A stretch of 64,000 nt of DNA from Planctomycetota bacterium. Its GTDB lineage: Bacteria > Planctomycetota > UBA1135 > GCA-002686595. The notes beneath the pieces were generated by a model. The model saw nothing but the letters and a program-made list of their open reading frames with translations, did no database searches and had not been told where the DNA came from. Both the position numbers and the translations under genes were made by a program. This document shows, piece after piece, positions 1 through 46,485 of the stretch (the first letter of the stretch is position 1; every line of letters starts with the position of its first letter). Location: the NCBI GenBank assembly GCA_044228955.1, contig JBGATY010000002.1, positions 10,160-74,159 of the forward strand. Direction: 5' to 3'.

Positions 1-1
1 C

Positions 2-439: not shown

Positions 440-476
440 GCCGCATCGAGCTGACCCACCGGTCCGCCCGCGGCAA

Positions 477-1140: not shown

Positions 1141-1218
1141 CCGCAACTCCGTCGTCCTTGGCGCGGCGGAGCCCTTGTAGCTCCGCCCATTCCGAAGGCT
1201 TCTTCGTGCGGAGTTCAG

Positions 1219-2706: not shown

Positions 2707-2720
2707 GCAGGAAGGCTGCC

Positions 2721-5700: not shown

Positions 5701-6014
5701 AGGGCAAAATGAAAACCTTCGAAGATCTGACCGAAGCTATCGTTCACGGCGCGGTCAAGCGCATTCGTCCGAAGCTGATGACTGTCGCTTGCGCCTTTAT
5801 TGGCCTTGTTCCGGTTATGTGGTCGACAGGAACTGGTGCCGACATGATGAAGCGCGTCGCGGCACCGCTCATGGGCGGACTGGTGACGAGTTTCATCCTG
5901 GAGCTACTCGTCTACCCGGCCGTTTATGCAGTCTGGAAATGGCGCTTCGTCATGAAGCGCGGCACCGTCGATGTCTCCAAGCTCACCATGCCGCGACTTG
6001 GAGGCCACGCGTGA
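2721..6014 (+). CDS. cusA: CusA/CzcA-family heavy-metal efflux RND transporter (monovalent Cu/Ag type)
   Basis: 1097 aa with a 12-TM RND layout. The TM4 motif SIGVLVDGAIIEVENAYKKLERW resembles CusA AxGxxVDxAIVxxEN rather than the CzcA DFG type. Confidence 0.93.
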   Translation: MIERIIEWCARNRWLVLVFAAVAVVGGIWSANHVPLDAIPDLSDTQVIVYSRWDRSPDVIEDQVTYPIVSAMLGAPNVKAIRGFSDFGFSYVYIVFQDGTDLYWARSRTLEYLSKILPRLPEGVKIELGPDATGVGWVFQYALLDKSGNNNLADLRSFQDWRLRYWLQSVPGVAEVATFGGFQRQYQVNLDPVKLLGYGIPIAKVVDAVRAGNNDVGGRLVELAGAEYMVRGRGYARSIEDIGSIVVATDERGTPVLVKNLGTVSMGPEIRRGIGDLDGLGDAVGGIVVMRHGENALAVIERVKQKLEDIKQSLPKGVELVTTYDRSELITESIDTLKHELLAALIVVSMVILIFLWHIPSAVVPIITIPVAILLAFIPMYFLGVGSNIMSISGITISIGVLVDGAIIEVENAYKKLERWVAGGRVGDFHEVRLSALKEVGPSVFFSLLVIAVAFLPIFALEEQEGRLFKPLAYTKNLTLAMAAILAITLDPAVRMLFTRMDFVHFRPRWLSWSFNQVTVGRYVPEEKHPISRILFRLYEGPCRWVIRHRAITIIGSLLLVLTTIPVYRALGSEFKPPLWEGDLLYMPITFPGISVTEARTLLQNTDQVLMSVPEVERVHGKAGRAETSTDPAPFSMLETVVKLKPESQWRSKARFYSDWPDWMKTPLRHVWPDHISKEELHADLQQRLQVPGTTYSMLMPISNRIDMLTTGVRTPIGIKVLGDDLKRIEEVAVEVESIIKDVPGTSSAFAERTAGGYFVDFKLKRENLARYGLTVDDAEMVIMSAVGGEPVTTSIHGRERYTVNVRYARELRDDVDGLRRVLVPTPSGAQIPLEELAELSLTEGASMIRDENGLLAGYVYVTTSDSDLGGYVDRAKAAVRQRLQVPVGYSLTWSGQYENILRIQERMKLVLPITVFLIFVLLFMNTKSAVKAGIVMLAVPFSAIGAFWLLWLLDYNLSIAVWVGLIALMGLDAETGVFMLLFLDLSFWERVREGKMKTFEDLTEAIVHGAVKRIRPKLMTVACAFIGLVPVMWSTGTGADMMKRVAAPLMGGLVTSFILELLVYPAVYAVWKWRFVMKRGTVDVSKLTMPRLGGHA

Positions 6015-7363
6015 AGCTAATTCGCCGAACGACGGTCTGGGCAACGGCCGTGCTCGCTCTCTCAGCATGCGTGGCGCATCCGGCTGGCGAGCGCGAGGAG
6101 CGAGATCGTGCGCTGGCGGCAGGTCGGGAGTTCGACGAGCATCTTGAAGCTCCAAGCCTTCCCGAGAATCCAAGCGCTGACGATTACTTGCGAGCAGCGT
6201 TCCTTGCCAACGCCGAGCTGCGAGCTCGCTACTGGGAATGGCGAGCGGCGCTCGAACGCATCCCGCAGGATGCGAGCCCGCCAAACGCAGCGCTGAGTTT
6301 CTCTTATCTCTTGAGCGGTGGGAGCATGAAGGCATGGGACCGCACGACGCTTGGGATCTCGAATGACCCGATGACGAATATCCCGTTGCCTCCGAAGCTG
6401 GCCATTGCCGGTCGCAGGGCACTCGAAAATGCTCGGGCCACCGGCCTGCGCTTCGAAGCGGCCAAGTTTCGTCTCCAGGCGCAGGTCCTCGCGCTGTACT
6501 ACGACCTCGCTCTCCACGCCGAACAGATTCGCATTCAGCAGGAGACGATTGCCTTGCTGGCCGTAACGGCGGGCGAGGCCTCAGCTCGCCTGGCAACAAG
6601 TGCGGTGCCTCAGGAAGACGTACTTAGATCTGGCACGGAGCTGGATCTCGCACGCAATGACTTGGCAAACCTCCATGCTCAACTTCCTCCGATGGTGGCG
6701 CAGATGAATACGCTCCTCGGCCGAGCGCCGGATGCCCGTGTGCCATTGCCAGAGTCGCTGCCAGATCCAAGGCCGCTCCCTGCAACAGACGAGGAAATCG
6801 TCCACCTCGCGGCCGAGCGCAGCCCGGAGCTCTCGGCGTTGGCGCGCGATGTGGCCGGCCGGAAGGAGGGGCTCGATCTCGCGCGCAAGGCCCGTCTGCC
6901 CGACGTCAACCTCTCCTTCTCGATCACAGGGACGGTTTCGGAAGCGCTGGGAGGGATGGTGGTACTGCCTACTCGGAGGGAGGCGATCCAGGGAGGCATC
7001 GAACAGGCACGTGCCGACCTGCGCGCGGCAGAAGCGGCGCGGATTCAGTACTCCCGCGATCTCGCCGCGAGCTTGGTACTCGACCTCTACGTTCTGCACA
7101 ACGCGGAACGGCAGGCGACCCTCTTCCAGGACACGATCATTCCACGCGCCGACCTAGTCGCTCGCACTGCGCAGGCTTCACTCGCATCGGGCCGAATGCG
7201 GCTGATGGATGTGGTGGAAGCTCAGCGCGCGGCGCTCGACGCGCGCCTTACCCTCGCCATGCTCCGGGTCGAGCGCGAGAAGGCGTTGGTCGCGATCGAG
7301 AGTTGGTCGAAGGTCGACGTCGAAGCGCTGCACCCTGTGCGGAGCGGTACCTCGATGCGTTGA
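6011..7363 (+). CDS. cusC: outer-membrane efflux factor lipoprotein (CusC/TolC family)
   Basis: GTG at 6011 overlaps the cusA stop (GTGA). Lipoprotein signal VKLIRRTTVWATAVLALSAC. Two coiled-coil/TolC-like repeats. The 5573 start in the ORF track is an in-frame upstream extension inside cusA. Confidence 0.85.
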   Translation: MKLIRRTTVWATAVLALSACVAHPAGEREERDRALAAGREFDEHLEAPSLPENPSADDYLRAAFLANAELRARYWEWRAALERIPQDASPPNAALSFSYLLSGGSMKAWDRTTLGISNDPMTNIPLPPKLAIAGRRALENARATGLRFEAAKFRLQAQVLALYYDLALHAEQIRIQQETIALLAVTAGEASARLATSAVPQEDVLRSGTELDLARNDLANLHAQLPPMVAQMNTLLGRAPDARVPLPESLPDPRPLPATDEEIVHLAAERSPELSALARDVAGRKEGLDLARKARLPDVNLSFSITGTVSEALGGMVVLPTRREAIQGGIEQARADLRAAEAARIQYSRDLAASLVLDLYVLHNAERQATLFQDTIIPRADLVARTAQASLASGRMRLMDVVEAQRAALDARLTLAMLRVEREKALVAIESWSKVDVEALHPVRSGTSMR

Positions 7364-7400
7364 GACGTCCGGCGTCCTCCGATACCAAACGTCACTCAGA

Positions 7401-7622
7401 TCACGTCTCTGTTGCTTCATGCTGTGGTGGCGAGAACACCTGGACGGCTGCTGCCTTTAGCATCGCGAGGATCGCGGCCTTCATCGGCTCTTGCAGGGTT
7501 GGCCACGCTTCCGTGACGAGCACGAGTTCGTGGTCCAACGCACGCTCTTGCACAGGCTCGCACTGCTTTGCACCAGTTCGGTGTGCTGGGGATTCTGCTG
7601 GGGACGCGGACCCCGCGTTCAT
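7401..7622 (-). CDS. small hypothetical protein with C-terminal AWPTL.EP.KAAILAMLKAA motif
   Basis: ATG at 7622 (minus strand), 73 aa. Its C-terminus is homologous to the 477-731 ORF and the two share the 17-nt core AGCATCGCGAGGATCGC. The longer track ORF (to 7712) runs into the tRNA-like sequence. Confidence 0.3.
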   Translation of the reverse strand: MNAGSASPAESPAHRTGAKQCEPVQERALDHELVLVTEAWPTLQEPMKAAILAMLKAAAVQVFSPPQHEATET

Positions 7623-7627
7623 AACCT

Positions 7628-7708
7628 GCGTATTCCCGGGGGCTTCCGAGCCCGGCTTCCGGTTTCCTAAACCGCAGGTCGGCAGTTCGAACCTGCCCGG
7701 GCGCACCA
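7628..7708 (+). tRNA. tRNA-Arg(CCU)-derived sequence with a canonical 3' 49 nt and a degenerate 5' half (att-type remnant or pseudo-tRNA)
   Basis: 7659-7708 reads as anticodon stem CCGGT/ACCGC, loop TTCCTAA (anticodon CCT), variable AGGTC, T-arm GGCAG-TTCGAAC-CTGCC, acceptor CGGGCGC, then A-CCA. The required 5' acceptor GCGCCCG is present only as GCG-TATT-CCCG, and no normal D-arm is present. Confidence 0.5.
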
Positions 7709-7924
7709 GCACATGGGCCGCGCGTGGGACGGGGACCCGATGCTTCGTCGGCAGCGAACCTTTTTCCGGCGCAGTTGGTCGATCTCTCGACGTTCGCGTC
7801 GATGATTATCGAGTGGTCATCTCCCGCGGCTCGTTCGTGGGGAAGAGTTGAGGAGGGTAGTCCCCGGAGTTCGGACCCGGACATCGATCGGGTTTGCAAG
7901 CAGGGGACTCGCTCGAACAACACC

Positions 7925-8524
7925 ATGGTCGACGCATCTCGTCTTCCGCCCGAGCGGGGGAATGTCAGCTCCTCGAAGGCCGCAACACCGGCCGCGGCGA
8001 GCGCGACGACGGTCTCTGCGATCGTCCCCGATTGGTCGCGCGAGCGGGTCCGCTGTTTCTGGGACACGCAGCGACAACTGTTGCGACACATCCGCGGGTA
8101 CCAGGCGTGGAAGCGGCGCGGAGGACTGGTGTCGCAGGTCATGCGGCGCTGGCACGTGCTCGGGTATCGCTGGTGGTCGATCGTGACCGCTTCGCAGATC
8201 AACCTCGGAGTCGAGATTGGAGGCGGCCTGCAGATGCCGCATCCCAACGGCATCGTGATCCACCCCGAGGCCAAGATCGGGCCGAATTGTCTGATCTTTC
8301 AGCAGGTGGGCATCGGTCCCGGCGGCCCCAAGCCCGGAGTGCCCGTGCTGGCCGGCCACGTCGACGTGGGGGCGGGGGCCAAGATCCTGGGCGGCGTTGT
8401 GATCGGGGAGCACGCGCGCATCGGAGCGAACGCCGTCGTGATCGACGACGTCCCGGCCTACGCGACGGTGGTGGGCGTGCCGGCGAGGATCGTCAGGATC
8501 GGCGCGCTGCGTCGGCTCAGTTGA
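7925..8524 (+). CDS. serine O-acetyltransferase-like hexapeptide-repeat acyltransferase
   Basis: ATG at 7925. Left-handed beta-helix repeats: IHPEAKIGPNCLIFQQVGIG...AGHVDVGAGAKILGGVVIGEHARIGANAVVIDDVPAYATVVGVPAR. Confidence 0.8.
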   Translation: MVDASRLPPERGNVSSSKAATPAAASATTVSAIVPDWSRERVRCFWDTQRQLLRHIRGYQAWKRRGGLVSQVMRRWHVLGYRWWSIVTASQINLGVEIGGGLQMPHPNGIVIHPEAKIGPNCLIFQQVGIGPGGPKPGVPVLAGHVDVGAGAKILGGVVIGEHARIGANAVVIDDVPAYATVVGVPARIVRIGALRRLS

Positions 8525-8647
8525 GTCGGCCCTGAACGGATCGTTCCGCGGACGTCGCGCGACGCGGCGTCGTTTTGCACGGCGAGCACCTTCGACCTCA
8601 CGAACGGAGTGCGGGCGACCTGGCGGAGCCGTTCCGAGCGTGCCTGG

Positions 8648-11169: not shown

Positions 11170-13746
11170 ATGTGCTTCCCTGCCTCGATTCGCGGTGCCA
11201 TTCCGCTCCTCGCCCTCGTTGTTTCGTTCGCGTCCTGGCCAGCAAGCGCCGGCACGTCGCAATCACGACCACAAGGACTCGCCTCGTCCGATTGGGCGAC
11301 GATCCGTCGTCTGGTTGGGGCCGATCGATATGTCGCGCGAACCGAGGGCAACGACTTCATCGCGTACAACCCCTGCCAGCAGTGGGTGACTCGGTTCGAT
11401 CGCCGGGGCTTCACGATTCGGCCTGAACACGGCGAATGGACGTGGGGCCTCCAACTGGAACACTTCGGATTCGCAGGTTGCGAGAGACACGTGAACGACC
11501 CGTCGTCCGTGTGCAGCGCGGACTCGCGCGTGACCTACACATGGGATGAGACGCTGCAAGAGTCGTGGATCAACGACGCGCGCGGAATCGAGCACGGGTA
11601 CACGGTGCTCGAGCGGCCCGAGACCGAGATCTGCGGACCTCTCTCGATCACGCTCTCCATCCGCGGAGATTTGCTTCCCCGCGTGCTAGACGGCGGCCGG
11701 CTCATTCGATTCTCTTCGCAGCCGGGAGCTGCCGTCCTCGACTACATGGGCTTGACGGTCTTCGACGCGAAGGGGCGCGAGCTCGAAGCACGTTTCGTCG
11801 AAGCCGCGCCCGCGTCGATTCGGGTCGAGATCGAGGAGTCCGACGCGGCGTATCCCATCACGGTCGATCCCGTCGCCCAGCAGGCGTACCTGAAAGCCTC
11901 CAACACCGATTTCAGCGACTCGTTTGGAAGCGCCGTGGCCATCTCCGGCGACACCGTCGTCGTGGGAGCCCCTGGCGAGTCCAGCCAAGCCATCGGTGTG
12001 AACGGCAATCAAGCCGACAACTCGGCGAGCTACGCGGGAGCTGCCTACGTGTTCGTGCGCAATGGGTCGAGCTGGATGCAGCAGGCGTACCTCAAGGCCT
12101 CGAACACGAATGCCGTGGATCTCTTCGGGGCGTCGGTCGCGGTGTCAGGGGACATTCTCGTGGTCGGCGCTCCATTCGAGTCGAGTGCGGCTGTCGGCAT
12201 CAACGGCAATGAACTCGACAATTCGGCCAACCAGGCCGGCGCAGCGTACGTGTTCGTCCGCACGGGCACCGTATGGGTGCAGGAAGCCTACTTGAAAGCC
12301 TCGAACGCGAACGCGGACGATCAGTTCGGCTGGAGCGTCACGGTGGACGGGAACACGATCGTGGTCGGAGCGCCGAAGGAGGACAGCAGCTCGACTGTAG
12401 TGAATGGCAACGAGCTCGACGAAAACGCTCCGCAAGCAGGTGCCGCGTACGTGTTCGTGCGCAACGGAACGTCCTGGAGTCAGCAGGCCTATCTGAAGGC
12501 ATCCAATGCCACGCAGGGATTCGAGTTCGGCAACGCCGTCGCGCTGTCCGGCGACATCGCGGTCGTCGGGTCTCACCATGAATTCGGCGACTCGACGGGC
12601 GTCAATGGCAATCAGTCCCTGCAAAACACACCTTTGGCGGGTGCGGCGTACGCGTTCGCGCGGATGGGAGCGTCCTGGACGCAACAGGCCTATTTCAAGG
12701 CCTCGAACACGGAGGCGTACGACGCGTTCGGCAGCTCGGTCGCGGTAGAGGGTGATACCGTTTCCGTGGGGGCGCCCTACGAAGACAGCGCCGCGAGCGG
12801 CGTGAACGGCAATCAGGCAGACAACACCGCGGCCGATTCCGGTGCCGTCTACACATTCCACTGGAACGGGAGCACGTGGAGCCAACAGGCATACTTGAAA
12901 GCGTCGAACACGGGCGTTTCCGACCACTTCGGAAACGCCGTGTCGATTTCGGGCAACCTGCTCGTAGCCGGAGCCAGTTTCGAGGAGAGCTCGGCCACCG
13001 GCGTGAATGGCGATCAGAGCAGCAACCTCTCGAGTTCGTCCGGAGCGGCTTACGTTTTCGTCCGGACAGTCTCCGTCTGGAGCCAGATTGGGTACCTGAA
13101 GGCCTTCAACACGGGGGCGGGCGACAGTTTCGGTCAAGCCGCGTCCTTGTCCGGTGCGACGGCCCTGATCGGTGCTCCCAACGAAGACAGCAACGCCACC
13201 GGGGTCAACGGGAACGGTCTGAACAACACCGGTTTCGATTCGGGCGCCGCCTACGTGTTCACGCTCGACCCTGTTCCGGCGTCCTTCTGCCTCGGTGACG
13301 GCACCCAGTCTCCGTGTCCCTGCGGCAATCCGGGCGCTGCCGGGCGGGGCTGCGGAAGCAGCGCCTTCTCAGGTGGGGCGCTCCTCGCCGCATCGGGGAA
13401 TCCAGGCGCTTCAGTCGGAACCGACAGCCTCGTGCTGACCGCGACGGACATCCCCGGGCCAGGTCTGTTCTTCCAATCGATCGGCGTGGCGGCGGCCCCG
13501 ATTCCATTCGGGGACGGACTGCTTTGCGCATCTGTCGGAATCGTTCGACTGGGCGTCGTGTTCCCAGCCGCAGGCAGCGCGTCCTATCCGGGCGGACTCA
13601 CTCCGAATCCCATCCACGTAGCCGGAGCTCCCCTCACCGCGGGAAGCACAAGGCATTATCAATGCTGGTACCGCTCCCAGCCGGGACTCTGCAGCGCGAA
13701 CAACTTCGATTTGACACAGGGCTTGACCATCACATGGTGGCCATGA
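11170..13746 (+). CDS. secreted FG-GAP-type 7-blade beta-propeller protein with shared Cys-containing C-terminal domain
   Basis: Signal peptide. Seven repeats of the form AYLKASNT..D.FG.SVA.SGD..VVGAP.E.S...GVNGNQ.DNSA..AGAAYVF. The C-terminal 153 aa are homologous to the C-termini of the 34521 and 45055 proteins. Confidence 0.88.
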   Translation: MCFPASIRGAIPLLALVVSFASWPASAGTSQSRPQGLASSDWATIRRLVGADRYVARTEGNDFIAYNPCQQWVTRFDRRGFTIRPEHGEWTWGLQLEHFGFAGCERHVNDPSSVCSADSRVTYTWDETLQESWINDARGIEHGYTVLERPETEICGPLSITLSIRGDLLPRVLDGGRLIRFSSQPGAAVLDYMGLTVFDAKGRELEARFVEAAPASIRVEIEESDAAYPITVDPVAQQAYLKASNTDFSDSFGSAVAISGDTVVVGAPGESSQAIGVNGNQADNSASYAGAAYVFVRNGSSWMQQAYLKASNTNAVDLFGASVAVSGDILVVGAPFESSAAVGINGNELDNSANQAGAAYVFVRTGTVWVQEAYLKASNANADDQFGWSVTVDGNTIVVGAPKEDSSSTVVNGNELDENAPQAGAAYVFVRNGTSWSQQAYLKASNATQGFEFGNAVALSGDIAVVGSHHEFGDSTGVNGNQSLQNTPLAGAAYAFARMGASWTQQAYFKASNTEAYDAFGSSVAVEGDTVSVGAPYEDSAASGVNGNQADNTAADSGAVYTFHWNGSTWSQQAYLKASNTGVSDHFGNAVSISGNLLVAGASFEESSATGVNGDQSSNLSSSSGAAYVFVRTVSVWSQIGYLKAFNTGAGDSFGQAASLSGATALIGAPNEDSNATGVNGNGLNNTGFDSGAAYVFTLDPVPASFCLGDGTQSPCPCGNPGAAGRGCGSSAFSGGALLAASGNPGASVGTDSLVLTATDIPGPGLFFQSIGVAAAPIPFGDGLLCASVGIVRLGVVFPAAGSASYPGGLTPNPIHVAGAPLTAGSTRHYQCWYRSQPGLCSANNFDLTQGLTITWWP
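11878..13266 (+). repeat. seven tandem ~198-nt coding repeats (FG-GAP blades)
   Basis: Seven consecutive ~66-aa units, each starting Q(Q/E/I)(A/G)Y(L/F)KA(S/F)N and ending AGAAYVF-like. These are protein repeats, not CRISPR. Confidence 0.85.
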
Positions 13747-15256: not shown

Positions 15257-15594
15257 ACATCGACCAGCCGGGATTCGATCGTCGCTGGCTCGAGCTCGCG
15301 CGGACCGCGCGCACGGGGCCGCGAGCGGAGCCCTTCGCGCTCGAGATCGCGCGCCGGGCTCGACGGCGCGAGCCCGAGGCGTTGCCGCTCGTGTCCGCGC
15401 GCTCGGCGTGGTGGTGTGGCATTGCGGCGGCCGTCGTCACCTGTTTCCTCGCCCCGCTCGCGTTCGAGCGCGTCGAACTGCCGCCGACGGTCGTCGACCT
15501 CTCGCCGCCCGATCTGCCTCCGCCACCGTCCCTGGAATCGCCTTCCTACTATCTCGCCCGGGCCGGTGCGGCCTGGAAGGAACTCACGCCATGA
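15253..15594 (+). CDS. putative single-pass anti-sigma factor
   Basis: ATGA overlap with the sigma stop. One TM helix (WWCGIAAAVVTCFLAPLAF). Assigned by position. Confidence 0.6.
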   Translation: MNIDQPGFDRRWLELARTARTGPRAEPFALEIARRARRREPEALPLVSARSAWWCGIAAAVVTCFLAPLAFERVELPPTVVDLSPPDLPPPPSLESPSYYLARAGAAWKELTP

Positions 15595-16118
15595 TCCTGG
15601 CCGACATCCTGCAGTGGTTCTTGTTGATCCTCGGCGCCATTCTCACGCTCAACGCGCACTGGATGGGAGCTCACGCGTTGTTCCCCGACGTCGTTCGACG
15701 CGCGCGCGAGCGATACGTGACCTCGCCCGTGAAAGCGACGTTCGTCGGGCTCGCGATCCTGATCCCGAACGTCGTCGTGGCGACCGTCCTCGCCAAGACG
15801 ATCCCGCATCCTGCGGTCCAGTCACTCGCGGTGGGACTGTTGCTGATCGTCGGCCTCTTGGCCTTGGTCGGATCGGCGGGTCTCGTCGAACGCATCGGAC
15901 TCGGCATGCCGTCGCAGCGCGACGCCGAACAGCCGTGGCGGCGCGTCATGCGTGGCGGCATCGTGCTCGGCCTCGCGTTCCTGATGCCGTTCCTGGGTTG
16001 GTTCGTGTTGTTGCCGTGGACGTTGATCAGCGGCCTCGGCGCGTGGGCGCTCGCGGGGCGCGCGCCGCGTGCCGTCGTGCTGGCTTCGACGTCCGAGCCG
16101 CTGCGAGCGGCGGACTGA
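15591..16118 (+). CDS. polytopic membrane protein of unknown function
   Basis: ATGA overlap with the preceding stop. 4-5 hydrophobic helices. The track ORF start at 15249 is an upstream extension. Confidence 0.6.
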   Translation: MILADILQWFLLILGAILTLNAHWMGAHALFPDVVRRARERYVTSPVKATFVGLAILIPNVVVATVLAKTIPHPAVQSLAVGLLLIVGLLALVGSAGLVERIGLGMPSQRDAEQPWRRVMRGGIVLGLAFLMPFLGWFVLLPWTLISGLGAWALAGRAPRAVVLASTSEPLRAAD

Positions 16119-16123
16119 GAGCC

Positions 16124-17557
16124 GTGGCCGCCTCTCGACGAGAACTGCTCGCGTCCCTGCTCGGTGCGTGGGTCTTCGCGAGCCTGGGCGCCGCGCCCGC
16201 GGTCACGTGGCTGCGGCGCTCGCGCCAGGCGGCGCTGCCCTGGCCCGAGGGTGCGTGCAGCCCCGACCTCGAACACCTGCTCGCGCGTTGCGGTTTCGGT
16301 GCACGGCCGGGCGAGCGCGACACGGGCGACACCGCGGAGCAGTGGATCGAGCGGCAAATCGATTGCGAGGGCATCGAAGATCGGGTCTTCGAGTCACGCC
16401 TGCGGCGCTTCGACACGTGGTACATGGCGGTGGGCGAGCTGTACGAATTCCAGGAGCACGTCGTGCGAGGCGAGCTGCAGTCCGTCGTGCTCCTCGCCGC
16501 CACGCACAGCGAGCGACGCCTGCGCGAATCCGTGCTCGACCTGTGGCGCGACCATTTCAGTCTGAGCCTCGGCAAGGGCGAATGCGCATGGCTCGCCACG
16601 AGCTTCGAGAGGGACGCCTTGCGTCCGCACGCACTCGGGGCTTTCCGCGAGTTGCTGCGCGCCGTGCTCCTGCATCCGGCGATGCTGTGGTTCCTCGACG
16701 GTCGCATGAACCGCGCCGATAGCGGCTCGCCGAACGAGAACTACGCGCGCGAGCTGCTGGAATTGCACACGCTCGGGCTCGACGGCGGATACACGCAGGG
16801 GGACGTGCAGGAGGTCGCACGCGCACTCAGCGGCTGGTGCTCGCGCGGACTGGGCGAGAGGCAGAAAGCGCGCGTCTCGTTCGAGGCAAAACGCCACGAC
16901 GCGCGGTCGAAGCACGTGCTCGGGGTCGAGTTGCCCGAGGCCCTGGGCGAGGACGAAGTCGAACGCGTGCTCGACATCGTCTGCGCGCATCCGGCGACGT
17001 CGCGGCACGTCGCTCGCAAGCTGTGCGCGCGTTTCGTCTCCGACGATCCGCCGCGTAGCGTCGTCGAGGCGGTCGCGGCGAGCTTCGAACGCTCGAACGG
17101 CGACGTTCGGATCGCGCTCTTGACGCTGCTTTCCAGCGTGGAATTCCGTGCCGCCCGTGGGCTCAAGCTGAAGCGGCCGCTGCACTTCGTGGTCTCGGCC
17201 ATCCGCGCGTGCGACGCGACCTGCGAGCCGAGTGACGCGCTGCTCCAGCGGCTGGAGCGGCTGGGCCATGCGCCGTACCTGTGGCCCACGCCTGACGGCT
17301 ACCCCGACACGGCCGTGTTCTGGCGCGCCGGACTGCTCGGTCGCTGGCGCTTCGCCGACGAGTTGGCGCAGGGCCGTTTGCGGGGCGTGCACGTCGACGC
17401 CGCTGAGATAGTCAGCCGCGCCGGCGGACGAGCCCAAGTAGCGAAGTCGTGCCTCGGCCGCGAGCCGACGGCCTTGGAACTGGACGCGTTCACGAACGGC
17501 GACGACGCCGCGGGGCTCGCCGCGATCCTCGCGTGCCCGGGATTCCAGCGATGCTGA
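16124..17557 (+). CDS. DUF1800 family protein with Tat-like signal
   Basis: GTG at 16124. SRRELLASLLGAWVFASLGAAPA signal. Core DLWRDHFS...LLHPAMLWFLDG..N......NENYARELLELHTLG. Confidence 0.85.
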   Translation: MAASRRELLASLLGAWVFASLGAAPAVTWLRRSRQAALPWPEGACSPDLEHLLARCGFGARPGERDTGDTAEQWIERQIDCEGIEDRVFESRLRRFDTWYMAVGELYEFQEHVVRGELQSVVLLAATHSERRLRESVLDLWRDHFSLSLGKGECAWLATSFERDALRPHALGAFRELLRAVLLHPAMLWFLDGRMNRADSGSPNENYARELLELHTLGLDGGYTQGDVQEVARALSGWCSRGLGERQKARVSFEAKRHDARSKHVLGVELPEALGEDEVERVLDIVCAHPATSRHVARKLCARFVSDDPPRSVVEAVAASFERSNGDVRIALLTLLSSVEFRAARGLKLKRPLHFVVSAIRACDATCEPSDALLQRLERLGHAPYLWPTPDGYPDTAVFWRAGLLGRWRFADELAQGRLRGVHVDAAEIVSRAGGRAQVAKSCLGREPTALELDAFTNGDDAAGLAAILACPGFQRC

Positions 17558-18612
17558 ACGACACCCTGGTCACGGTCTTCTTGCGTGGCGCGGCCGACGG
17601 GCTCGCGCTCGTCCCGGCGGTGGGGGATCCGAACTACCGCCGTGCGCGTCCTTCGAGCGGAGTCAACGCGGGAACGGGCGTGAAGCTCGACGAGGTCTAC
17701 GCGCTCGCTCCGGAACTCTCCGCGCTCGAACCGCTCTGGCGCGAAGGACGCCTCGCCGTCGTGCAGGATGCTGCCAGCAGCGACGAGACGCGCTCCCATT
17801 TCTATGCGCAGCCGCTGCTCGAACGCGGCGGCGCGAACGCGGCGGGAGGCTGGATCGCGCGCTATGCGATGGCGCGCGGCGGAGCGGTGCCGGCGCTGGC
17901 GTTCGGCTCCGCGCTGCCCGAGAGCCTGCGCGGCGGTGCGCCCGCGACGGCGTTGCAGAGCTTGAGCGACCTCGATCCCGGACCTCGAGTCGCCCATTTG
18001 GCCGAAACGCTGTCCGTTCTTTACGCCGAGGACGATCTGCTCGCGACGCCCGCGGCGAGCACACGCGCCGCGTTGAAGCAACTGCGCGAGCTGGAGCTCG
18101 CGCCATATCGGCCGGCCGACGGCGTCGATTGGGAGCGCGACGAGTTCTCGCAACAGCTCGCGCAGACCGCGCGGCTCATCAAGCGCGGCGTGCGGCCTGC
18201 CGCCGTGTGCATCGATCTCTTCGGCTGGGATTCGCACGTGGCGCAGGCGCAGATCCTCGCGCCGCTCATGCGACAGCTCGCTCTTGGACTGGCGCATTTC
18301 GCCACGGACCTTGGCGAACTTCTCGACCGCACCTCGGTGGTCGTCTACACCGAGTTCGGCCGTCGCGTGGCCGAGAACTCCGGGCTGGGCACGGACCACG
18401 GACACGGCTTTGCGATGCTCGTCCTCGGCGGCGGCGTGAAAGGCGGCTTCCACACCGGCCTTCACGAACTCGAAGCCGACAACCTGATCGGGCCAGGCGA
18501 CCTGCCGGGGGCCATCGATTATCGCGCCGTGCTCGCACCGGTCGTCGCGCGGCACGGAGTTCCGGCGGACGCGGTCTTCGGCGCGCTGGAGCAGCCCCCG
18601 CTGCCCATTTGA
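17551..18612 (+). CDS. DUF1501 family protein (sulfatase/alkaline-phosphatase-like fold), no evident signal peptide
   Basis: ATG at 17551 overlaps the DUF1800 stop (ATGCTGA). LVTVFLRGAADGL..., WDSHV, TEFGRRVAENSGLGTDHGHG. Confidence 0.85.
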   Translation: MLNDTLVTVFLRGAADGLALVPAVGDPNYRRARPSSGVNAGTGVKLDEVYALAPELSALEPLWREGRLAVVQDAASSDETRSHFYAQPLLERGGANAAGGWIARYAMARGGAVPALAFGSALPESLRGGAPATALQSLSDLDPGPRVAHLAETLSVLYAEDDLLATPAASTRAALKQLRELELAPYRPADGVDWERDEFSQQLAQTARLIKRGVRPAAVCIDLFGWDSHVAQAQILAPLMRQLALGLAHFATDLGELLDRTSVVVYTEFGRRVAENSGLGTDHGHGFAMLVLGGGVKGGFHTGLHELEADNLIGPGDLPGAIDYRAVLAPVVARHGVPADAVFGALEQPPLPI

Positions 18613-23268: not shown

Positions 23269-23282
23269 GATGGTCCTCGCGA

Positions 23283-34520: not shown

Positions 34521-37190
34521 ATGAAACCAGGGCTCTCTCTCATCGCAGGATTCTGCTTCGCTTCGCTGAGCGTCTGCGCCTCGGCACAGGTGCCGCAACT
34601 GACCCCGCCTGCCTGGCTGAGCGGTGACACCGTCATCGGTGCGGCCGCGGGCGAGCAGATCGCCCCCCGACTCGCGGCCGGCGGCAGCGGATTCCTCGCC
34701 GTCTGGTCCGACTCTCGATCGCTCCTCGCGGGCGGCGAGTCGACGACCGACTACGACGTTTACGCCATGCGCCTCGACGCGAACGGCTCGCCGATCGACG
34801 CGACTCCGATCCCCGTGGCGACGCGCTACGGCTACCAGCGCAATCCACAGGTCGCCTGGAACGGCGAGAACTGGCTCGTCGTGTTCGAATCACAGGACCC
34901 GGCCTTCAGCTACTACGCGGACTATCTGCGCGGCGTGCGCATCTCGCCCGCGGGCGCCGTGCTGGATCCGCAGTCGATCCTGATCCGATCCAGCACGAGT
35001 TCCAGTTCGATCTGGTCCATGTGCGCGAACGGATCGGAATGGATCGTCGCGGCCGAGGGCACGTCGGGTGGCGACAACGACCTCGTCGGCATCCGTGTAG
35101 CGGCAAACGGAACGCTCGTGAGCGCGATGCCGACCATCCTGCAGCCGGCCGAGTACTTCCTGCATTTCAACATCCGCGTCGTCGCGGCGCAGGGACAGGT
35201 GCTGGTCTCCTGGAGCGGCGTCAACAACCCCGTGGCGCGACGCTTCAGTTCGTCCCTCGCGCCGCTCGCACCCGTGTTCGACACGGCCACGACGAACATC
35301 GGCTCGAACGGCCTCTCGTACTACGCGGCCTGGTTCGACGCGACGTCCAACGTCGTCGGTTCTCCGCTCGCGCTCGACGGCACGCGGCAGTTCCCCGCCG
35401 GCGTGCCGATCATGTCCTCCTTCGGCGTGACGGCTCTGGCCGAGCCGAGTTGGGACGGGACGCAGTGGTGGGTGGCCGTGCAGCACGCGACGCAGGGCAT
35501 CCTCGCCGCGCGCATCGCCGCGAACGGCACGGTCGTCACGCAGGGCGGCAGCGGCGTGCAGGCGCTGTCGGGCAGCACGTTCGCCAGCGTGCGTGTGTGT
35601 GGCGGGACCGCCGGCGGGGCACAGTTCTCGTGGTCCTCGTTCGGAACTGGCTCGGCCGCCTCGAACGAAGTCCTGGGCAGGCACGCGACATCGACGTTTG
35701 CGCTCGGCGCGACGACGCTGGTGAGCACGTCGGTGACCGCGCAGTTGCGGCCGGCGATCTGCGCCGGACCGGACGGCTGGGCCGTCGTCTACGAGAGCGC
35801 TCTGGGATCGACGCGCCGCGTGCTCGTGCAGCGCTTCGACGTGCACGGCAATCAGGTCGGTGCCGAGCCGATCCAGGCCGGAACGACGCCCTCTGCGGGA
35901 GCGGGCATCGCCTGGAACGGCTCGCTCTACTGCATCGTGTGGAACGACGGCCTGAACGTGGTCGCGCGGCGCATGCTCGTCGACGGCACGTTCCTCGACG
36001 CCGATCCGATCACGGTCATGCCCGGCTCATCGGCGGACGTCGACGCGGTCGGTGACGTGTTCCTGATCGTCACGACCAGCACTACGAGCTTCTATCCGGA
36101 GTTCCGCTCGACTTTCGTGCGGCGTCTGAGCGGCACGAGCGGAGCGTTCCTCGACGCGGGTCCGCTCAACATCGGTGGTGGATTCTCGCAACTCGCGCGC
36201 GTGTCGACGGTCGATGGGCGCTGGCTCGTCACGTACCAGACCAACGATTCACACGACAGCCCGCAGGCGAGCATCGTCGCGCAGTTCGTGAATCCCGACG
36301 GAACGCTCGGCGTGGGCACGGGCGTCGGTTACCCCGGCGGCTCACCCGACGTGGCCGACGGCGACGGCGCCGCGCTCCTCGTGTGGCGCCACCTGAGCCC
36401 CTCGAACGCGAACAACGACGTCGTGTGTCGGCGCATGGCCTACGACGGTTCGCTCGGGCCCATCGTGACGATCAGCGCGGCTTTGGGCCGGCAGATGAAC
36501 CCCAAGGTCACGTGGGACGGCACGCAGTGGCTCGTGGCGTGGGAGGACCAGCGCAATCAAGTCACCTTCTACGACAAGCGCACCGATGCGTACGGCGCGC
36601 GCGTCTCGGCCGGCGGGACCGTCCTCGATCCGTCGAGCTTTGCCTGGCTCGACTCCGAGCAACCGGTCACGTGGCCTGTGCTGGCGACCTACGGCGCACG
36701 GACGATGTTCGTTGCGGCGCAAATGCGGCCCGAGTTGGGCCTCGGGGCCTATCGACTCGTCGTCGAACGCACCGTCGGCGATTGCGCCAGCCCCGCGCGC
36801 TTCTGCTCCGCGGGTCCGAACACGAGCGGTGCGGCAGCGCGCATCGATGCGACCGGCACTTCGAGCCTCTCGGCGAACAACCTCGTCCTGGCGGCGACGA
36901 ACCTGCCGGCCGGAACGTTCGGACTCTTCTTCCAGGGCAATCGCGCAGTGCAACCAGGCGGCGTGTTCGGCAACGGACTGCGTTGCATCGGGGGCACGCT
37001 GCAACGTCTCGGCGTGGTCCCGGCCACCGCTGGTGGCAGCGCGTCGATGGCGCAGGACTTCAACTCGGCCGGCTGGGCCGGCGTGAATGCGAACGACGTG
37101 CGCTACGTGCAGTTCTGGTTCCGCGACCCGCTCGCAGGCGGCGCAGGATTCGACTTGACCGACGCGCTCGAGCTCTCGTTCTGTCCGTGA
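34521..37190 (+). CDS. large secreted beta-rich repeat protein with shared C-terminal domain
   Basis: Signal peptide MKPGLSLIAGFCFASLSVCASAQ. Recurrent P.V(A/T)W(N/D)G..WLV(V/A)(F/W)E(S/D)(Q/R) ... YG(A/M)R(V/L)...G.(V/P)LD units. The C-terminal 129 aa are homologous to the 11170 and 45055 protein tails. Confidence 0.85.
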   Translation: MKPGLSLIAGFCFASLSVCASAQVPQLTPPAWLSGDTVIGAAAGEQIAPRLAAGGSGFLAVWSDSRSLLAGGESTTDYDVYAMRLDANGSPIDATPIPVATRYGYQRNPQVAWNGENWLVVFESQDPAFSYYADYLRGVRISPAGAVLDPQSILIRSSTSSSSIWSMCANGSEWIVAAEGTSGGDNDLVGIRVAANGTLVSAMPTILQPAEYFLHFNIRVVAAQGQVLVSWSGVNNPVARRFSSSLAPLAPVFDTATTNIGSNGLSYYAAWFDATSNVVGSPLALDGTRQFPAGVPIMSSFGVTALAEPSWDGTQWWVAVQHATQGILAARIAANGTVVTQGGSGVQALSGSTFASVRVCGGTAGGAQFSWSSFGTGSAASNEVLGRHATSTFALGATTLVSTSVTAQLRPAICAGPDGWAVVYESALGSTRRVLVQRFDVHGNQVGAEPIQAGTTPSAGAGIAWNGSLYCIVWNDGLNVVARRMLVDGTFLDADPITVMPGSSADVDAVGDVFLIVTTSTTSFYPEFRSTFVRRLSGTSGAFLDAGPLNIGGGFSQLARVSTVDGRWLVTYQTNDSHDSPQASIVAQFVNPDGTLGVGTGVGYPGGSPDVADGDGAALLVWRHLSPSNANNDVVCRRMAYDGSLGPIVTISAALGRQMNPKVTWDGTQWLVAWEDQRNQVTFYDKRTDAYGARVSAGGTVLDPSSFAWLDSEQPVTWPVLATYGARTMFVAAQMRPELGLGAYRLVVERTVGDCASPARFCSAGPNTSGAAARIDATGTSSLSANNLVLAATNLPAGTFGLFFQGNRAVQPGGVFGNGLRCIGGTLQRLGVVPATAGGSASMAQDFNSAGWAGVNANDVRYVQFWFRDPLAGGAGFDLTDALELSFCP

Positions 37191-39738: not shown

Positions 39739-39792
39739 GGCGCGCGGACCGGGCGCGCCGAAGCCGCGACGGGTCGATCGGTGTGCGCAGCC

Positions 39793-45054: not shown

Positions 45055-46485
45055 ATGCGCCTCCGTCTCCTCTCTCTCGCGTTGTGCGCGGCGGCCTCCA
45101 CCGCCTCCGCTCAGGTCCCGACCTTCGACGACGTCATCGTGGGGCAGGTCCCGCTCGACGCGGGAGGCACGGTGCCGCTCTTCACGGACATCTACCTGCC
45201 GAGCGGCTCGAGCGGGCCGACTCCGTGCGTCGTGTGGATTCACGGCGGAGGATGGGCGTCGGGTTCGCACGACGGCATGCCGACCGCCATCCTGCGTCTC
45301 CTCGACTCGGGCGTCGCCCTGGCGAGCGCGGGCTATCGACTCAGTGATCAGGCGATCTTTCCTGCGCAACTGCACGACGTGAAGGGGGTCATTCGGCACC
45401 TGCGCGCGAATGCAGCTCAGTACAACATCGACCCGACGCTCATCGCGGCCTGGGGAGCGAGCGCCGGCGGTCACCTCGCGGCACTGCTCGCGACGACCGC
45501 TGACGAGTCGGGATTCGAAGGCGATTCCGGCGGCAACACGCAGCATTCGAGTCGGATCGTCGCGGCGGTCGACTACTTCGGTCCGACCGACCTCTTGATG
45601 GCGAATCCGGACATCACCTATCCGCCGGGCAGCTACCTCGATCACGACGCGCCTTCCTCCTACATGTCACACCTCATCGGGTTCGACGGACCGGGTCAGG
45701 GAATCGGCGTGCTGCGCGGCAACCTGTTCAGTACGACGTCGCCGTTCCCCGAGAAGTTGGAGTTGGCGAGAGAAGCGAACCCGATCACGCACCTCTCGCA
45801 GTTCGATGCGCCGATCTTCATCGCGCACGGCCTCCTCGACACCATCATCCCAGTGGGCCAGAGCCGCCGCCTGCACCAGGCCTCCATCGCGGCGGGCTGC
45901 GAGTCCGTGCTGAAGATCGACCCGATCAGCGGACACGGCTCGCTCAGTTCGTCGACGTACGCGGCGTCGCGCGCTTTCCTGCTCTCCCACTTCGAATCAG
46001 GGTCGCAAGCGGCGGGCGTGGCGTACTGCTTCGGAGACCTGAGCAGTGCAGCTTGCCCCTGCGGGAACTACAGCGCCGCGAATGCCTACGAGGGTTGCGC
46101 CAACTCGAGTTCGCTTGGTGGACGCCTGCGTGCCCTGGGCAGCACGAGCCTCGCCAACGAGACGGTCACGCTCGTTGCTTCACGGATGACGGGCTCGACC
46201 TCCATCTACATCGGCAGCCTCGGCATGGAATCGGATGGCGCCGGAGCGGCTCTGAGCGATGGCTTGCGCTGCATTTCCGGCACGATCGTGCGCTACGGCA
46301 CGAAGGCGAACACGGGCGGCGCTTCGCAGTACCCAAACGCCGGCGACCTGCATCTCTCGCTGGTCGGCGGGATCGCCCCGGGCACGACGCACTACTTCCA
46401 AGCCCTCTACCGCGATAATTTCGAGTTCTGCCGGGAGTTGTCGTTCAACCTGACGAACGGCGTCGCGGTGACCTTCAGGCCCTGA
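45055..46485 (+). CDS. secreted alpha/beta-hydrolase (carboxylesterase-like) with shared C-terminal domain
   Basis: ATG at 45055 and a signal peptide. VWIHGGGW oxyanion motif and GASAGGH nucleophile elbow. The C-terminal 153 aa are homologous to the tails of the 11170 and 34521 proteins. Confidence 0.85.
   Translation: MRLRLLSLALCAAASTASAQVPTFDDVIVGQVPLDAGGTVPLFTDIYLPSGSSGPTPCVVWIHGGGWASGSHDGMPTAILRLLDSGVALASAGYRLSDQAIFPAQLHDVKGVIRHLRANAAQYNIDPTLIAAWGASAGGHLAALLATTADESGFEGDSGGNTQHSSRIVAAVDYFGPTDLLMANPDITYPPGSYLDHDAPSSYMSHLIGFDGPGQGIGVLRGNLFSTTSPFPEKLELAREANPITHLSQFDAPIFIAHGLLDTIIPVGQSRRLHQASIAAGCESVLKIDPISGHGSLSSSTYAASRAFLLSHFESGSQAAGVAYCFGDLSSAACPCGNYSAANAYEGCANSSSLGGRLRALGSTSLANETVTLVASRMTGSTSIYIGSLGMESDGAGAALSDGLRCISGTIVRYGTKANTGGASQYPNAGDLHLSLVGGIAPGTTHYFQALYRDNFEFCRELSFNLTNGVAVTFRP

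What the first reader, a model, noticed from the sequence alone, without database searches (positions are those of the whole stretch)
13285..13746. A ~130-153 aa Cys-containing C-terminal domain is shared by three unrelated secreted proteins: candidate unrecognised sorting or anchoring tag
The last 153 aa of the FG-GAP propeller (13285-13746), the last 153 aa of the esterase (46024-46485) and the last 129 aa of the 889-aa repeat protein (36801-37190) align. The shared pattern is (F/Y)C.GD.....CPCGN......GC..S...G..L.A.G..S.....L.L.A...P, then F(F)Q(G/S), then FG(D/N)GL(L/R)C..G...R.G, then (R/T)(H/Y)Y(Q/V)..(W/L)(Y/F)R(D/S), then F(D/N)LT....(I/V/L).(F/W).P-stop. All three proteins have signal peptides and different N-terminal cargo domains, and the domain is always at the extreme C-terminus. 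That architecture is the hallmark of secretion or attachment tags such as T9SS CTDs and PEP-CTERM-type sorting signals. This domain does not match any of those as far as I can recognise.
Basis: seen in the sequence. Interest (0 to 1): 0.7.

Follow-up and report, generated by a model that had tools for sequence, protein, structure and literature searches.

The report
Undescribed C-terminal tag domain in Planctomycetota
Three unrelated exported proteins in this planctomycete window end in the same roughly 150-residue, cysteine-rich beta-sandwich domain; it belongs to a very large, uncatalogued family that always sits at the extreme C-terminus and most likely tells the cell where to put these proteins.

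Summary
The three tails match pairwise (BLASTP E 4e-21 to 1e-11), and their cargo parts share nothing (best E 0.8).

- **Family size and curation:** the domain has no Pfam, NCBIfam or PDB match. It defines at least 11,758 clusters (50% identity). Every organism name seen is an uncultured Planctomycetota MAG, with many copies per genome.
- **Position:** in 265 of 265 proteins it occurs once and ends 0-1 residues before the stop. Across 114 genomic copies I found one internal case.
- **Cargo:** most carriers have signal peptides. Cargo is diverse: FG-GAP and Kelch propellers, lectins, esterase, nuclease, peptidases, and several "choice-of-anchor" families.
- **Structure:** AlphaFold gives a confident all-beta, sandwich-like model (pLDDT 92) with no close solved relative. 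Six cysteines are conserved.
- **Key evidence:** homologues of the 889-aa protein's cargo in other lineages end in a T9SS type A sorting domain, a dockerin or SLH repeats at the same position.

I conclude it is an undescribed C-terminal localisation (sorting or anchoring) domain. The machinery or receptor is unknown, and no function was tested. Distant variants exist, including a cysteine-free one in cultured Engelhardtia mirabilis.

The parts
11170..13746 (+). Gene for an 858-aa exported FG-GAP_2 repeat protein that carries the C-terminal domain
   Evidence: ORF. PF14312 FG-GAP_2, 7 stretches, E 2.3e-73. The exact sequence is in public collections. The NCBI gene call (751 aa) starts at V108 and so omits the signal peptide.
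11170..11250 (+). Predicted Sec signal peptide of the FG-GAP protein (MCFPASIRGAIPLLALVVSFASWPASA|G)
   Evidence: Read from the translation. Inferred by eye; no predictor was available.
13285..13743 (+). Canonical C-terminal domain copy 1 (153 aa, Cys at 2, 11, 13, 23, 81, 136 plus one extra at 127), ending ...TITWWP-stop
   Evidence: Family HMM i-E 7.5e-65, ending on the last residue. AlphaFold2 pLDDT 92.4, pTM 0.88, all-beta. Cys positions.
45055..46485 (+). Gene for a 476-aa exported BD-FAE-type esterase that carries the domain (the ORF is open from 44833; the likely start is the ATG at 45055)
   Evidence: PF20434 BD-FAE E 9.1e-54, residues 119-349 of the long ORF. Internal ATG followed by the signal-peptide-like MRLRLLSLALCAAASTASA|QVP.
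46024..46482 (+). Canonical C-terminal domain copy 2 (153 aa, 6 Cys), ending ...VTFRP-stop
   Evidence: Family HMM i-E 7.2e-61. BLASTP vs copy 1 E 4.5e-21.
34521..37190 (+). Gene for an 889-aa exported repeat protein (delta-60-repeat-like propeller cargo) that carries a variant of the domain
   Evidence: ORF. No Pfam hit and only a weak TIGR02608 hit. Signal-peptide-like N-terminus MKPGLSLIAGFCFASLSVCASA|QVP. Cargo homologues carry other C-terminal anchors.
36780..37187 (+). Variant C-terminal domain copy 3 (136 aa, 4 Cys, shortened Cys loop), ending ...ELSFCP-stop
   Evidence: Family HMM i-E 1.9e-31 over HMM positions 80-219. AlphaFold2 pLDDT 85.3, all-beta.
8558..8626 (+). Relic of a fourth copy: only the last 23 residues of the domain (RDAASFCTASTFDLTNGVRATW), with no upstream part
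   Evidence: Family HMM positions 196-218, i-E 1.8e-7 in the six-frame translation of the window. It lies directly after the stop of a hexapeptide-transferase ORF, 7724-8524.

Best explanation
The shared tail is an undescribed, lineage-restricted C-terminal localisation domain: a sorting and/or anchoring tag for exported proteins of a group of mostly uncultured Planctomycetota.

Proposed mechanism:
1. The proteins cross the cytoplasmic membrane through Sec, using signal-peptidase-I-type signal peptides (read from sequence).
2. The roughly 150-aa tail folds outside the cytoplasm into a beta-sandwich carrying an N-terminal Cys-rich loop. The six conserved Cys probably form three disulfides (inferred).
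3. This common module, rather than the varied cargo, is recognised by a shared partner. The partner could be an outer-membrane export or attachment machinery, or a cell-envelope polymer or scaffold. Either way, the many different cargoes (propeller and lectin-type binders, esterase, nuclease, peptidases) end up held at the cell surface or envelope (inferred by analogy).

The invariant free C-terminus (T-W-x-P-COOH) is probably part of what is recognised. Whether the tag is cleaved is unknown.
For: - **Strictly terminal, single copy.** 265 of 265 proteins have one copy ending 0-1 residues from the end. In 80 genomic loci, 111 of 114 copies end 0-1 codons before the stop. The last residue is Pro in 173 of 262 proteins, within a TWxP motif.
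- **Many copies per genome.** The window holds 3 intact copies and 1 relic in 64 kb. The 80 best loci hold 114 copies from 17 MAGs, up to 15 per MAG in this partial sample. At least 567 stretches were confirmed from a single peptide pattern.
- **Large family.** 11,758 representatives at E <= 1e-3 and 3,331 at E <= 1e-30.
- **Exported carriers.** Signal-peptide-like N-termini in 106 of 122 Met-started proteins.
- **Unrelated cargo.** FG-GAP, Kelch, propellers, C-type lectin, endonuclease I, M23, S8 and GBD_T9SS_assoc. NCBIfam choice-of-anchor C, E, J, Q and NxxGxxAF families are also present; that name refers to surface proteins that use alternative anchors (10.1101/2023.03.06.531300). The window cargoes share no similarity with each other.
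- **Same slot, known tags elsewhere.** Homologues of the 889-aa protein's cargo (about 27-40% identity over 71-100% of it for those outside its own close group, nearly full length in most) end in known localisation modules. These are TIGR04183 T9SS type A sorting domains above cut-off (P0284, P0317, P0375, P0389), a GC-type dockerin (P0283) and triple SLH repeats (P0328, P0349).
- **Sorting-signal criteria.** Five of Haft's seven published criteria for C-terminal sorting signals are met.
- **No fixed neighbour.** There is no conserved neighbouring gene, as expected for dispersed clients of a shared system.
- **Real folded domain.** The AlphaFold2 model is confident (pLDDT 92.4).
Against: - No partner, machinery or receptor was identified, and co-occurrence could not be tested.
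- There is no experimental evidence of location, cleavage or attachment.
- The domain is larger (about 150 aa, 11 strands) than T9SS CTDs and has conserved cysteines. That suits a persistent extracellular binding module as well as it suits a signal.
- Beta-sandwiches are also typical of lectins and CBMs.
- One internal copy exists (L015).
- The signal-peptide count rests on a crude heuristic.
- T9SS is reported as confined to Bacteroidota (PMC10515386), so any export machinery would have to be something else.
Confidence: 0.6

Rival explanations
1. It is a general ligand-binding module (lectin- or CBM-like adhesion domain). It gives many secreted proteins one shared binding specificity for an external target such as a polysaccharide, a particle or a prey surface. 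No dedicated sorting role or cell-envelope receptor is involved.
For: The fold is an Ig/FN3/macroglobulin-like beta-sandwich stabilised by conserved cysteines. The weak fold neighbours are binding or adhesin domains: LPMO-like X325, adhesin Ig repeats and complement MG domains, TM 0.38-0.55. Much of the cargo is itself adhesive or binding (FG-GAP, Kelch, lectins).
Against: From general knowledge, binding modules usually occur at variable positions and often in tandem. Here there is exactly one copy, ending 0-1 residues from the C-terminus, in 265 of 265 proteins. The extreme C-terminus is conserved. No CBM or lectin family matches, even weakly. The equivalent slot in cargo homologues holds sorting or anchoring modules (T9SS CTD, dockerin, SLH), although PKD domains also occur there.
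Confidence: 0.22
2. It is a true export signal for a not-yet-recognised outer-membrane secretion and attachment system of Planctomycetota. It would work like the T9SS C-terminal domain: recognised in the periplasm, translocated, and possibly cleaved with covalent attachment of the cargo.
For: The architecture matches T9SS cargo point by point: Sec signal peptide, diverse cargo, a single beta-sandwich at the extreme C-terminus, and a conserved C-terminal motif. In T9SS that motif is functionally required (PMC11285876). Eighteen cargo homologues carry a precomputed FlgD_ig (PF13860) annotation. In the four re-scanned here, it is a T9SS type A tail in the same slot. Five of 100 carriers have GBD_T9SS_assoc cargo domains. 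A T9SS-like CTD and a 'comparable system' have been suggested for Akkermansia, another PVC bacterium (PMC13524802).
Against: No machinery was found. There is no sequence or fold match to T9SS CTDs. Conserved disulfides and the larger size are unlike T9SS CTDs. No cleavage motif is evident beyond a loosely conserved G-T-P/S before the first Cys.
Confidence: 0.13
3. It is a C-terminal pro-domain or intramolecular chaperone (as PPC-type extensions are thought to be) that helps folding or keeps enzymes inactive, and is then removed.
For: It is terminal and single-copy. Some cargo are hydrolases (esterase, S8, M23, endonuclease I).
Against: Most cargo are non-enzymatic repeat or propeller proteins with unrelated folds, and one chaperone domain would not plausibly fit all of them. 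PPC (PF04151) does not match the domain.
Confidence: 0.04
4. The resemblance is chance or compositional (a high-GC, Gly/Ala-rich sequence) and not a real domain.
For: The genome is 67% G+C and the tails are rich in G, A, S and T.
Against: Pairwise E-values reach 4.5e-21. There are thousands of relatives with invariant Cys, Trp, Tyr and Arg positions. The structure prediction is confident.
Confidence: 0.01

Closest known systems
T9SS type A C-terminal sorting domain (TIGR04183 / PF18962 Por_Secre_tail) of Bacteroidota and relatives
   Same: Both are a single beta-sandwich at the extreme C-terminus of Sec-exported proteins with very diverse cargo. Both occur in many dispersed copies per genome and have a conserved C-terminal end (PMC11285876). 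They occupy the same slot on homologous cargo.
   Different: There is no sequence match even at E <= 5, and no T9SS CTD structure appears among the 50 listed fold matches of either model. This domain is about twice the size (about 150 aa and 11 strands, against a 7-strand 3+4 sandwich). It has six conserved Cys and a Cys-rich N-terminal loop. Its host phylum has no known T9SS (PMC10515386). No machinery is known.
Dockerin modules (type I; GC-type dockerin NF041540), which bind cohesin scaffolds
   Same: Both are typically C-terminal, single-copy tags on many unrelated secreted proteins of one organism. A Phycisphaerae homologue of the 889-aa protein's cargo ends in a GC-type dockerin in the same slot.
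   Different: There is no HMM match. The fold here is a beta-sandwich, not the small Ca-binding helical dockerin fold (general knowledge). No cohesin-like partner has been identified.
SLH (S-layer homology) repeats and other non-covalent envelope anchors
   Same: Both are terminal modules that hold diverse exported proteins on the cell envelope. SLH triplets occupy the same slot in some cargo homologues (P0328, P0349).
   Different: There is no homology. This domain is a single copy rather than a triplet of repeats. The binding target is unknown.
Tripartite C-terminal sorting signals (LPXTG, PEP-CTERM, MYXO-CTERM, GlyGly-CTERM) and their sortases, exosortases or myxosortases
   Same: It meets the genomic criteria used to discover those signals: C-terminal location, multiple copies per genome, signal peptides, and clients unrelated elsewhere (10.1101/2023.06.07.544157).
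   Different: Those signals are short (motif, transmembrane helix, Arg cluster). This is a 150-aa globular domain with no terminal hydrophobic helix and no basic cluster.
Distant variants of the same superfamily found here: a 4-Cys 'YCTAK...QWWMRDP...LSNAL.V..CP' form and a Cys-free form (Engelhardtia mirabilis P0288)
   Same: They sit at the same position on the same cargo family and end in the same ...P-stop. hhalign links them: 4-Cys form vs the canonical family, probability 98%, E 3e-13; Cys-free form vs 4-Cys form, probability 97.8%, E 1.1e-12.
   Different: They lack the Cys-rich N-terminal loop. The Cys-free form matches the canonical profile only weakly when compared directly (probability 33%, E 4.5e-4). 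They are also uncatalogued.

Membership tests
T9SS type A C-terminal sorting domain (TIGR04183 / PF18962) | Match to the family HMM at or above its cut-off | tested here: not met
   No hit for the three full window proteins at E <= 1, nor for the tails or any of 123 family members at E <= 5. Positive control: cargo homologues P0284, P0317, P0375 and P0389 do hit TIGR04183 above its cut-off.
T9SS type A C-terminal sorting domain (TIGR04183 / PF18962) | Compact Ig-like 3+4 beta-sandwich of seven strands (PMC11285876) | tested here: inconclusive
   The AlphaFold2 models are all-beta and sandwich-like, but have about 11 strands plus a 32-residue Cys-rich coil. Foldseek finds only generic Ig/FN3/MG-like neighbours (TM <= 0.55, none at E <= 1e-3). 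No T9SS CTD entry appears among the 50 matches listed for either model.
T9SS type A C-terminal sorting domain (TIGR04183 / PF18962) | Extreme C-terminal position on Sec-exported, diverse cargo | tested here: met
T9SS type A C-terminal sorting domain (TIGR04183 / PF18962) | T9SS machinery (SprA/Sov, PorV, PorU and others) encoded in the same genome | not testable with these tools
   Only a 64-kb window and flanks of up to 10 kb around related genes were readable. None of the window ORFs scanned against Pfam matched a secretion-machinery family. T9SS is reported as exclusive to Bacteroidetes (PMC10515386).
Tripartite C-terminal sorting signals (LPXTG, PEP-CTERM, MYXO-CTERM and similar; criteria in 10.1101/2023.06.07.544157) | Located at the C-terminus, multiple copies per genome, N-terminal signal peptide, clients unrelated outside the tag | tested here: met
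Tripartite C-terminal sorting signals (LPXTG, PEP-CTERM, MYXO-CTERM and similar; criteria in 10.1101/2023.06.07.544157) | Hydrophobic transmembrane segment followed by a basic (Arg) cluster at the very end | tested here: not met
   The last 12 residues are DLTQGLTITWWP, NLTNGVAVTFRP and DLTDALELSFCP, with 0-1 Arg/Lys in the last 8. The whole tail is predicted as a folded beta domain.
Dockerin (PF00404, NF041540) | Match to dockerin HMMs (duplicated Ca-binding segment) | tested here: not met
   No hit at E <= 5 in 123 members. Positive control: P0283 hits both models and P0337 hits PF00404.
Dockerin (PF00404, NF041540) | Cognate cohesin-bearing scaffold protein in the genome | not testable with these tools
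   No whole genomes were accessible.
SLH domain (PF00395) | Match to the SLH HMM, usually as three repeats | tested here: not met
   No hit. Positive controls: P0328 and P0349.
Carbohydrate-binding modules, lectins and the PPC domain | Match to any curated CBM, lectin or PPC model on the tail itself, or a clear fold match | tested here: not met
   No family covers the tail. The PPC, Lectin_C and GBD matches were seen only in a few members that carry N-terminal cargo sequence, and the bare window tail has no hit; their positions were not reported. The PDB profile search found nothing below E 0.12. Foldseek found no match at E <= 1e-3.
The uncatalogued planctomycete C-terminal domain family defined here | Six conserved Cys (C-x8-C-x-C-x9/11-C ... 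C ... C), FGDG-L-R-C, YQ-x-WYR, FNLTNG, and a T-W-x-P end at the protein's C-terminus | tested here: met
   Met in full by the FG-GAP and esterase tails. The 889-aa protein's tail is a 4-Cys variant that keeps the core motifs from the LFFQG strand onward (FGNGLRC, YVQFWFRD, FDLTDA...FCP-stop).

The most novel reading that the evidence does not exclude
The domain is the client tag of a previously unrecognised outer-membrane secretion and surface-attachment pathway. The pathway would be specific to a large, mostly uncultured branch of Planctomycetota, functionally analogous to type IX secretion but not homologous to it, and would serve tens to possibly hundreds of proteins per genome. The Cys-free and 4-Cys variants would mark older or parallel versions of the same system, including in the cultured Engelhardtia mirabilis.
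Probability: 0.2. Interest if true: 0.9.

Novelty: new variant of a known kind. Interest (0 to 1): 0.68.

Why it matters
How Planctomycetota move proteins to their unusual cell surface is largely unknown, and most of the lineages that carry this domain are uncultured.

- **A way to read the surface proteome.** A single recognisable tag on thousands of exported proteins would predict the surface or secreted proteome of these organisms directly from sequence: adhesins, propellers, lectins and hydrolases.
- **A route to the machinery.** The tag gives a concrete handle for many-to-one phylogenetic profiling to find the machinery or receptor. That is the method that uncovered exosortases, rhombosortase and myxosortases.
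- **Annotation.** The family is large enough (at least 11,758 clusters at 50% identity) to deserve a curated model. At present every member seen is labelled 'hypothetical protein'.
- **A way into experiments.** The Cys-free relative in Engelhardtia mirabilis offers a cultured starting point.

Tried and rejected
- **Curated families.** Pfam and NCBIfam scans found nothing on the domain, in the three proteins and in 123 family members at E <= 5.
- **Solved structures.** The PDB sequence-profile search found nothing. Foldseek of two confident models against PDB and BFVD returned only generic Ig/FN3/LPMO/macroglobulin-like sandwiches, TM <= 0.55 and none at E <= 1e-3.
- **Conserved neighbours.** I clustered flanking ORFs of 80 loci and read three 20-kb annotated neighbourhoods. 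No recurrent non-carrier family and no secretion genes appeared.
- **Window context.** Pfam annotation of most of the larger window ORFs shows ordinary planctomycete genes (PSCyt/PSD, DUF1501, DUF1800, efflux pump, P-type ATPase, rhodaneses, ECF sigma factors) and no candidate machinery. There are no Rfam or tRNA hits.
- **Wasted search.** Searching the divergent 889-aa tail alone in the word-indexed database returned nothing.
- **Plasmids.** tblastn against plasmids found no match.
- **Literature.** Four searches (planctomycete plus C-terminal, sorting, T9SS, FG-GAP or cell surface) found no description of this domain.
- **N-glycosylation sequon.** I considered that the conserved F-N-L-T motif might be an N-glycosylation sequon and rejected it, because the Asn is replaced by Asp in two of the three window copies.
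- **Source organism.** Attempts to name it gave only 'Planctomycetota bacterium' MAG labels.
Full report
**Observation**

The three ORFs exist as described: 11170-13746 (858 aa), 34521-37190 (889 aa) and 44833-46485. The first has seven FG-GAP_2 repeats. The third is a BD-FAE esterase. The second has no Pfam domain.

Their tails (13285-13743, 46024-46482, 36801-37187) align at 32-35% identity. Pairwise BLASTP E-values are 4.5e-21, 1.9e-12 and 1.1e-11. The N-terminal cargo parts show no similarity to each other (best E 0.8).

All three begin with signal-peptide-like sequences ending in A-x-A. For the esterase this requires the internal ATG at 45055. These were judged by eye.

The 889-aa protein carries a variant. 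It lacks the CPCGN Cys loop and has 4 rather than 6 cysteines. The window comes from a Planctomycetota genome, shown by PSCyt1/PSCyt2/PSD1, DUF1501 and DUF1800 genes. It is 62-70% G+C.

**Is it a described domain?**

No. Pfam-A and NCBIfam (June 2026) give no hit on the tails, and none for any of 123 family members even at E <= 5. A profile search of all PDB sequences finds nothing below E 0.12.

AlphaFold2 with a 123-sequence alignment gives a confident model: pLDDT 92.4, pTM 0.88. It has a 32-residue Cys-rich coil followed by about 11 beta-strands. The variant tail also folds as an all-beta domain (pLDDT 85.3).

Foldseek against PDB and BFVD returns only generic Ig/FN3/LPMO/macroglobulin-like sandwiches. 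TM is at most 0.55, nothing reaches E <= 1e-3, and no T9SS CTD appears among the 50 matches listed for either PDB search. Four literature searches found no description.

**Size and distribution of the family**

An exhaustive HMMER search of 1.84 billion cluster representatives gives 11,758 proteins at E <= 1e-3, 7,881 at E <= 1e-10 and 3,331 at E <= 1e-30. Every source name seen is an uncultured Planctomycetota or Planctomycetes MAG.

A scan of one genome per GTDB species with a single peptide pattern confirmed at least 567 loci. The best 80 lie in 17 Planctomycetota MAGs. Those 80 loci contain 114 copies, up to 15 per MAG in this partial sample. Thirty loci have two or three carrier genes within 6.4 kb. 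The window itself has three intact copies and one relic in 64 kb.

**Architecture**

- In 265 of 265 proteins (262 from databases plus the three window tails) there is exactly one copy, and it ends 0 or 1 residues from the C-terminus.
- In genomic DNA, 111 of 114 copies end 0-1 codons before the stop. Two of the exceptions are partial copies.
- One copy (L015) is truly internal. It is followed by at least 466 more codons with coding-like GC3. The codon after the final Pro is TGT, one change from TGA, which suggests a stop-loss fusion.
- The end motif is T-W-x-P, and Pro is the last residue in 173 of 262 proteins. Six Cys are conserved.
- Of 122 representatives starting with Met, 106 pass a crude signal-peptide heuristic. 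Several of the failures are visibly signal peptides or truncated gene calls.

**Cargo**

Cargo is diverse. It includes FG-GAP and Kelch repeats, various propellers, GBD_T9SS_assoc, C-type lectin, endonuclease I, and M23 and S8 peptidases. It also includes delta-60 and HAF repeats and the NCBIfam choice-of-anchor families C, E, J, Q and NxxGxxAF. That name denotes surface proteins found with alternative anchors: LPXTG, PEP-CTERM or T9SS (10.1101/2023.03.06.531300).

No non-carrier gene family recurs next to carrier genes.

**The most informative test**

I searched the cargo of the 889-aa window protein without its tail (34593-36779) and found 161 homologues. Close relatives keep this domain: 13 of the 120 listed by HMM, always terminal. 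More distant homologues cover most of the cargo at about 27-40% identity (coverage 71-100%, nearly full length in most) and end instead in known localisation modules:

| C-terminal module | Examples (position / protein length) |
|---|---|
| T9SS type A sorting domain, above the TIGR04183 cut-off | P0284 807-886/890; P0317 764-846/848 (Gemmatimonadetes); P0375 820-899/901 (Eisenbacteria); P0389 939-1012/1016 |
| GC-type dockerin | P0283 770-818/819 (Phycisphaerae) |
| Triple SLH repeats | P0328, P0349 |

PKD domains also occur there. In this cargo family, then, the C-terminal slot is where lineages place their own sorting or anchoring module, and in this planctomycete group that slot holds the new domain.

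**A wider superfamily**

The same search exposed two further tail variants on the same cargo.

- A 4-Cys form (YCTAK...QWWMRDP...LSNAL.V..CP) matches the canonical profile by hhalign at probability 98%, E 3e-13.
- A Cys-free form matches the 4-Cys form at probability 97.8%, E 1.1e-12. It matches the canonical profile directly only weakly (probability 33%, E 4.5e-4).
- The Cys-free form occurs in the cultured Engelhardtia mirabilis (P0288, on a 6.9-Mb contig), a member of the Saltatorellus group (10.1101/817700).
- The beta-sandwich core therefore looks older than the Cys-rich loop. The link to the Cys-free form is transitive and needs confirmation.

**Interpretation**

- *Shown:* a real, very large, uncatalogued, strictly C-terminal, single-copy domain. 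It sits on exported proteins with unrelated cargo, occurs in many copies per genome, has so far been seen only in Planctomycetota, and is positionally interchangeable with known sorting or anchoring modules.
- *Inferred:* it is a localisation tag. My best reading (0.6) is Sec export, followed by oxidative folding of the tag, followed by recognition by a shared partner that keeps or places the cargo at the cell surface or envelope.
- *Not resolved:* whether the partner is a dedicated outer-membrane export and attachment machine (T9SS-like; listed separately at 0.13, and as the novel case at 0.2) or a polymer or scaffold receptor (SLH- or dockerin-like).
- *Main rival (0.22):* an ordinary binding module aimed at an external ligand. 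The fold and the disulfides fit this. The invariant terminal single-copy position and the anchor-slot evidence argue against it.

**Membership**

It meets Haft's genomic criteria for C-terminal sorting signals except the transmembrane helix and the Arg cluster. It is therefore not a sortase- or exosortase-type signal.

It fails the HMM tests for T9SS CTD, dockerin, SLH, PPC and CBM or lectin families, so it is not a member of any of them. The fold comparison with T9SS CTDs is inconclusive: both are beta-sandwiches, but they differ in size and strand count. The presence of T9SS machinery or a cohesin-like partner could not be tested.

**Verdict**

The domain is a new variant of a known kind (C-terminal localisation domains), with an unknown partner. 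It is worth a curated model and a phylogenetic-profiling study.

Noticed in passing
window 8558-8626 (+), with context 7724-8524 and 1-8000: A 23-codon relic of the 3' end of a fourth copy of the domain (RDAASFCTASTFDLTNGVRATW) lies directly after the stop of a hexapeptide-transferase ORF and has no upstream part. The first 8 kb of the window, which includes an AcrB-type pump at 2721-6014, has lower G+C (0.62 against 0.66-0.70). This suggests an insertion or rearrangement that destroyed a carrier gene.
   Followed up: partly
window 11170-11490: The public NCBI gene call for the FG-GAP protein is 751 aa and starts at V108 of the ORF, so it omits the signal peptide. The JGI/Logan call is the full 858 aa. 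Short calls of this kind would hide the exported nature of carriers in database surveys.
   Followed up: yes
L015 4575-5069 and downstream to 6467: This is the only internal copy seen. The domain is followed in frame by at least 466 Gly-rich codons with coding-like GC3. The codon after the final Pro is TGT, one substitution from TGA. It is probably a stop-loss fusion or a sequencing error.
   Followed up: partly
L085 19178-19426: An 83-codon fragment matches the last 81 positions of the domain (E 3.7e-38). It lies between a 2,936-aa carrier gene and the next gene, and looks like another decayed or frameshifted copy.
   Followed up: no
P0024, P0025, P0078, P0081, P0109, P0120 (database proteins of about 250 aa): A conserved minimal architecture recurs across several MAGs: signal peptide, then a small Cys-rich domain of about 75 aa (weak DUF5818 match in 7 of 123 members), then the C-terminal domain. 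It is the shortest full-length carrier and a convenient model for experiments.
   Followed up: partly
P0288 (Engelhardtia mirabilis) and P0286, P0291, P0295, P0343, P0379, P0392: A Cys-free C-terminal domain (…PF.GG.LVP…TDA.G…QAW.LDP…ASNA…P-stop) sits on the same cargo. It is uncatalogued and is linked to the new family only through an intermediate 4-Cys variant. It may be a much larger sister family in cultured planctomycetes.
   Followed up: partly
window 15416-18612 and 21805-26336: There are two copies of typical planctomycete gene pairs: DUF1800 (15416-17557) with a DUF1501-like ORF (17449-18612), and PSCyt1/PSCyt2/PSD1 (23283-26336, minus strand) with DUF1501 (21805-23268, minus strand).
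   Followed up: no
window 38782-44902: A cluster of multi-rhodanese proteins (1,060 aa with a metallo-beta-lactamase domain; 578 aa with three rhodanese domains) is followed by a small ORF (44489-44902) that looks by eye like an ArsR/SmtB-type regulator. That ORF overlaps the upstream extension of the esterase ORF. This may be a sulfur-handling locus.
   Followed up: no
window 47956-50430 (-), 57439-59064 (+), 26363-27397 (+): Other apparently exported proteins in the window lack the domain: an M60-like peptidase, a double fasciclin protein and a beta-propeller. The tag therefore marks only a subset of exported proteins.
   Followed up: no
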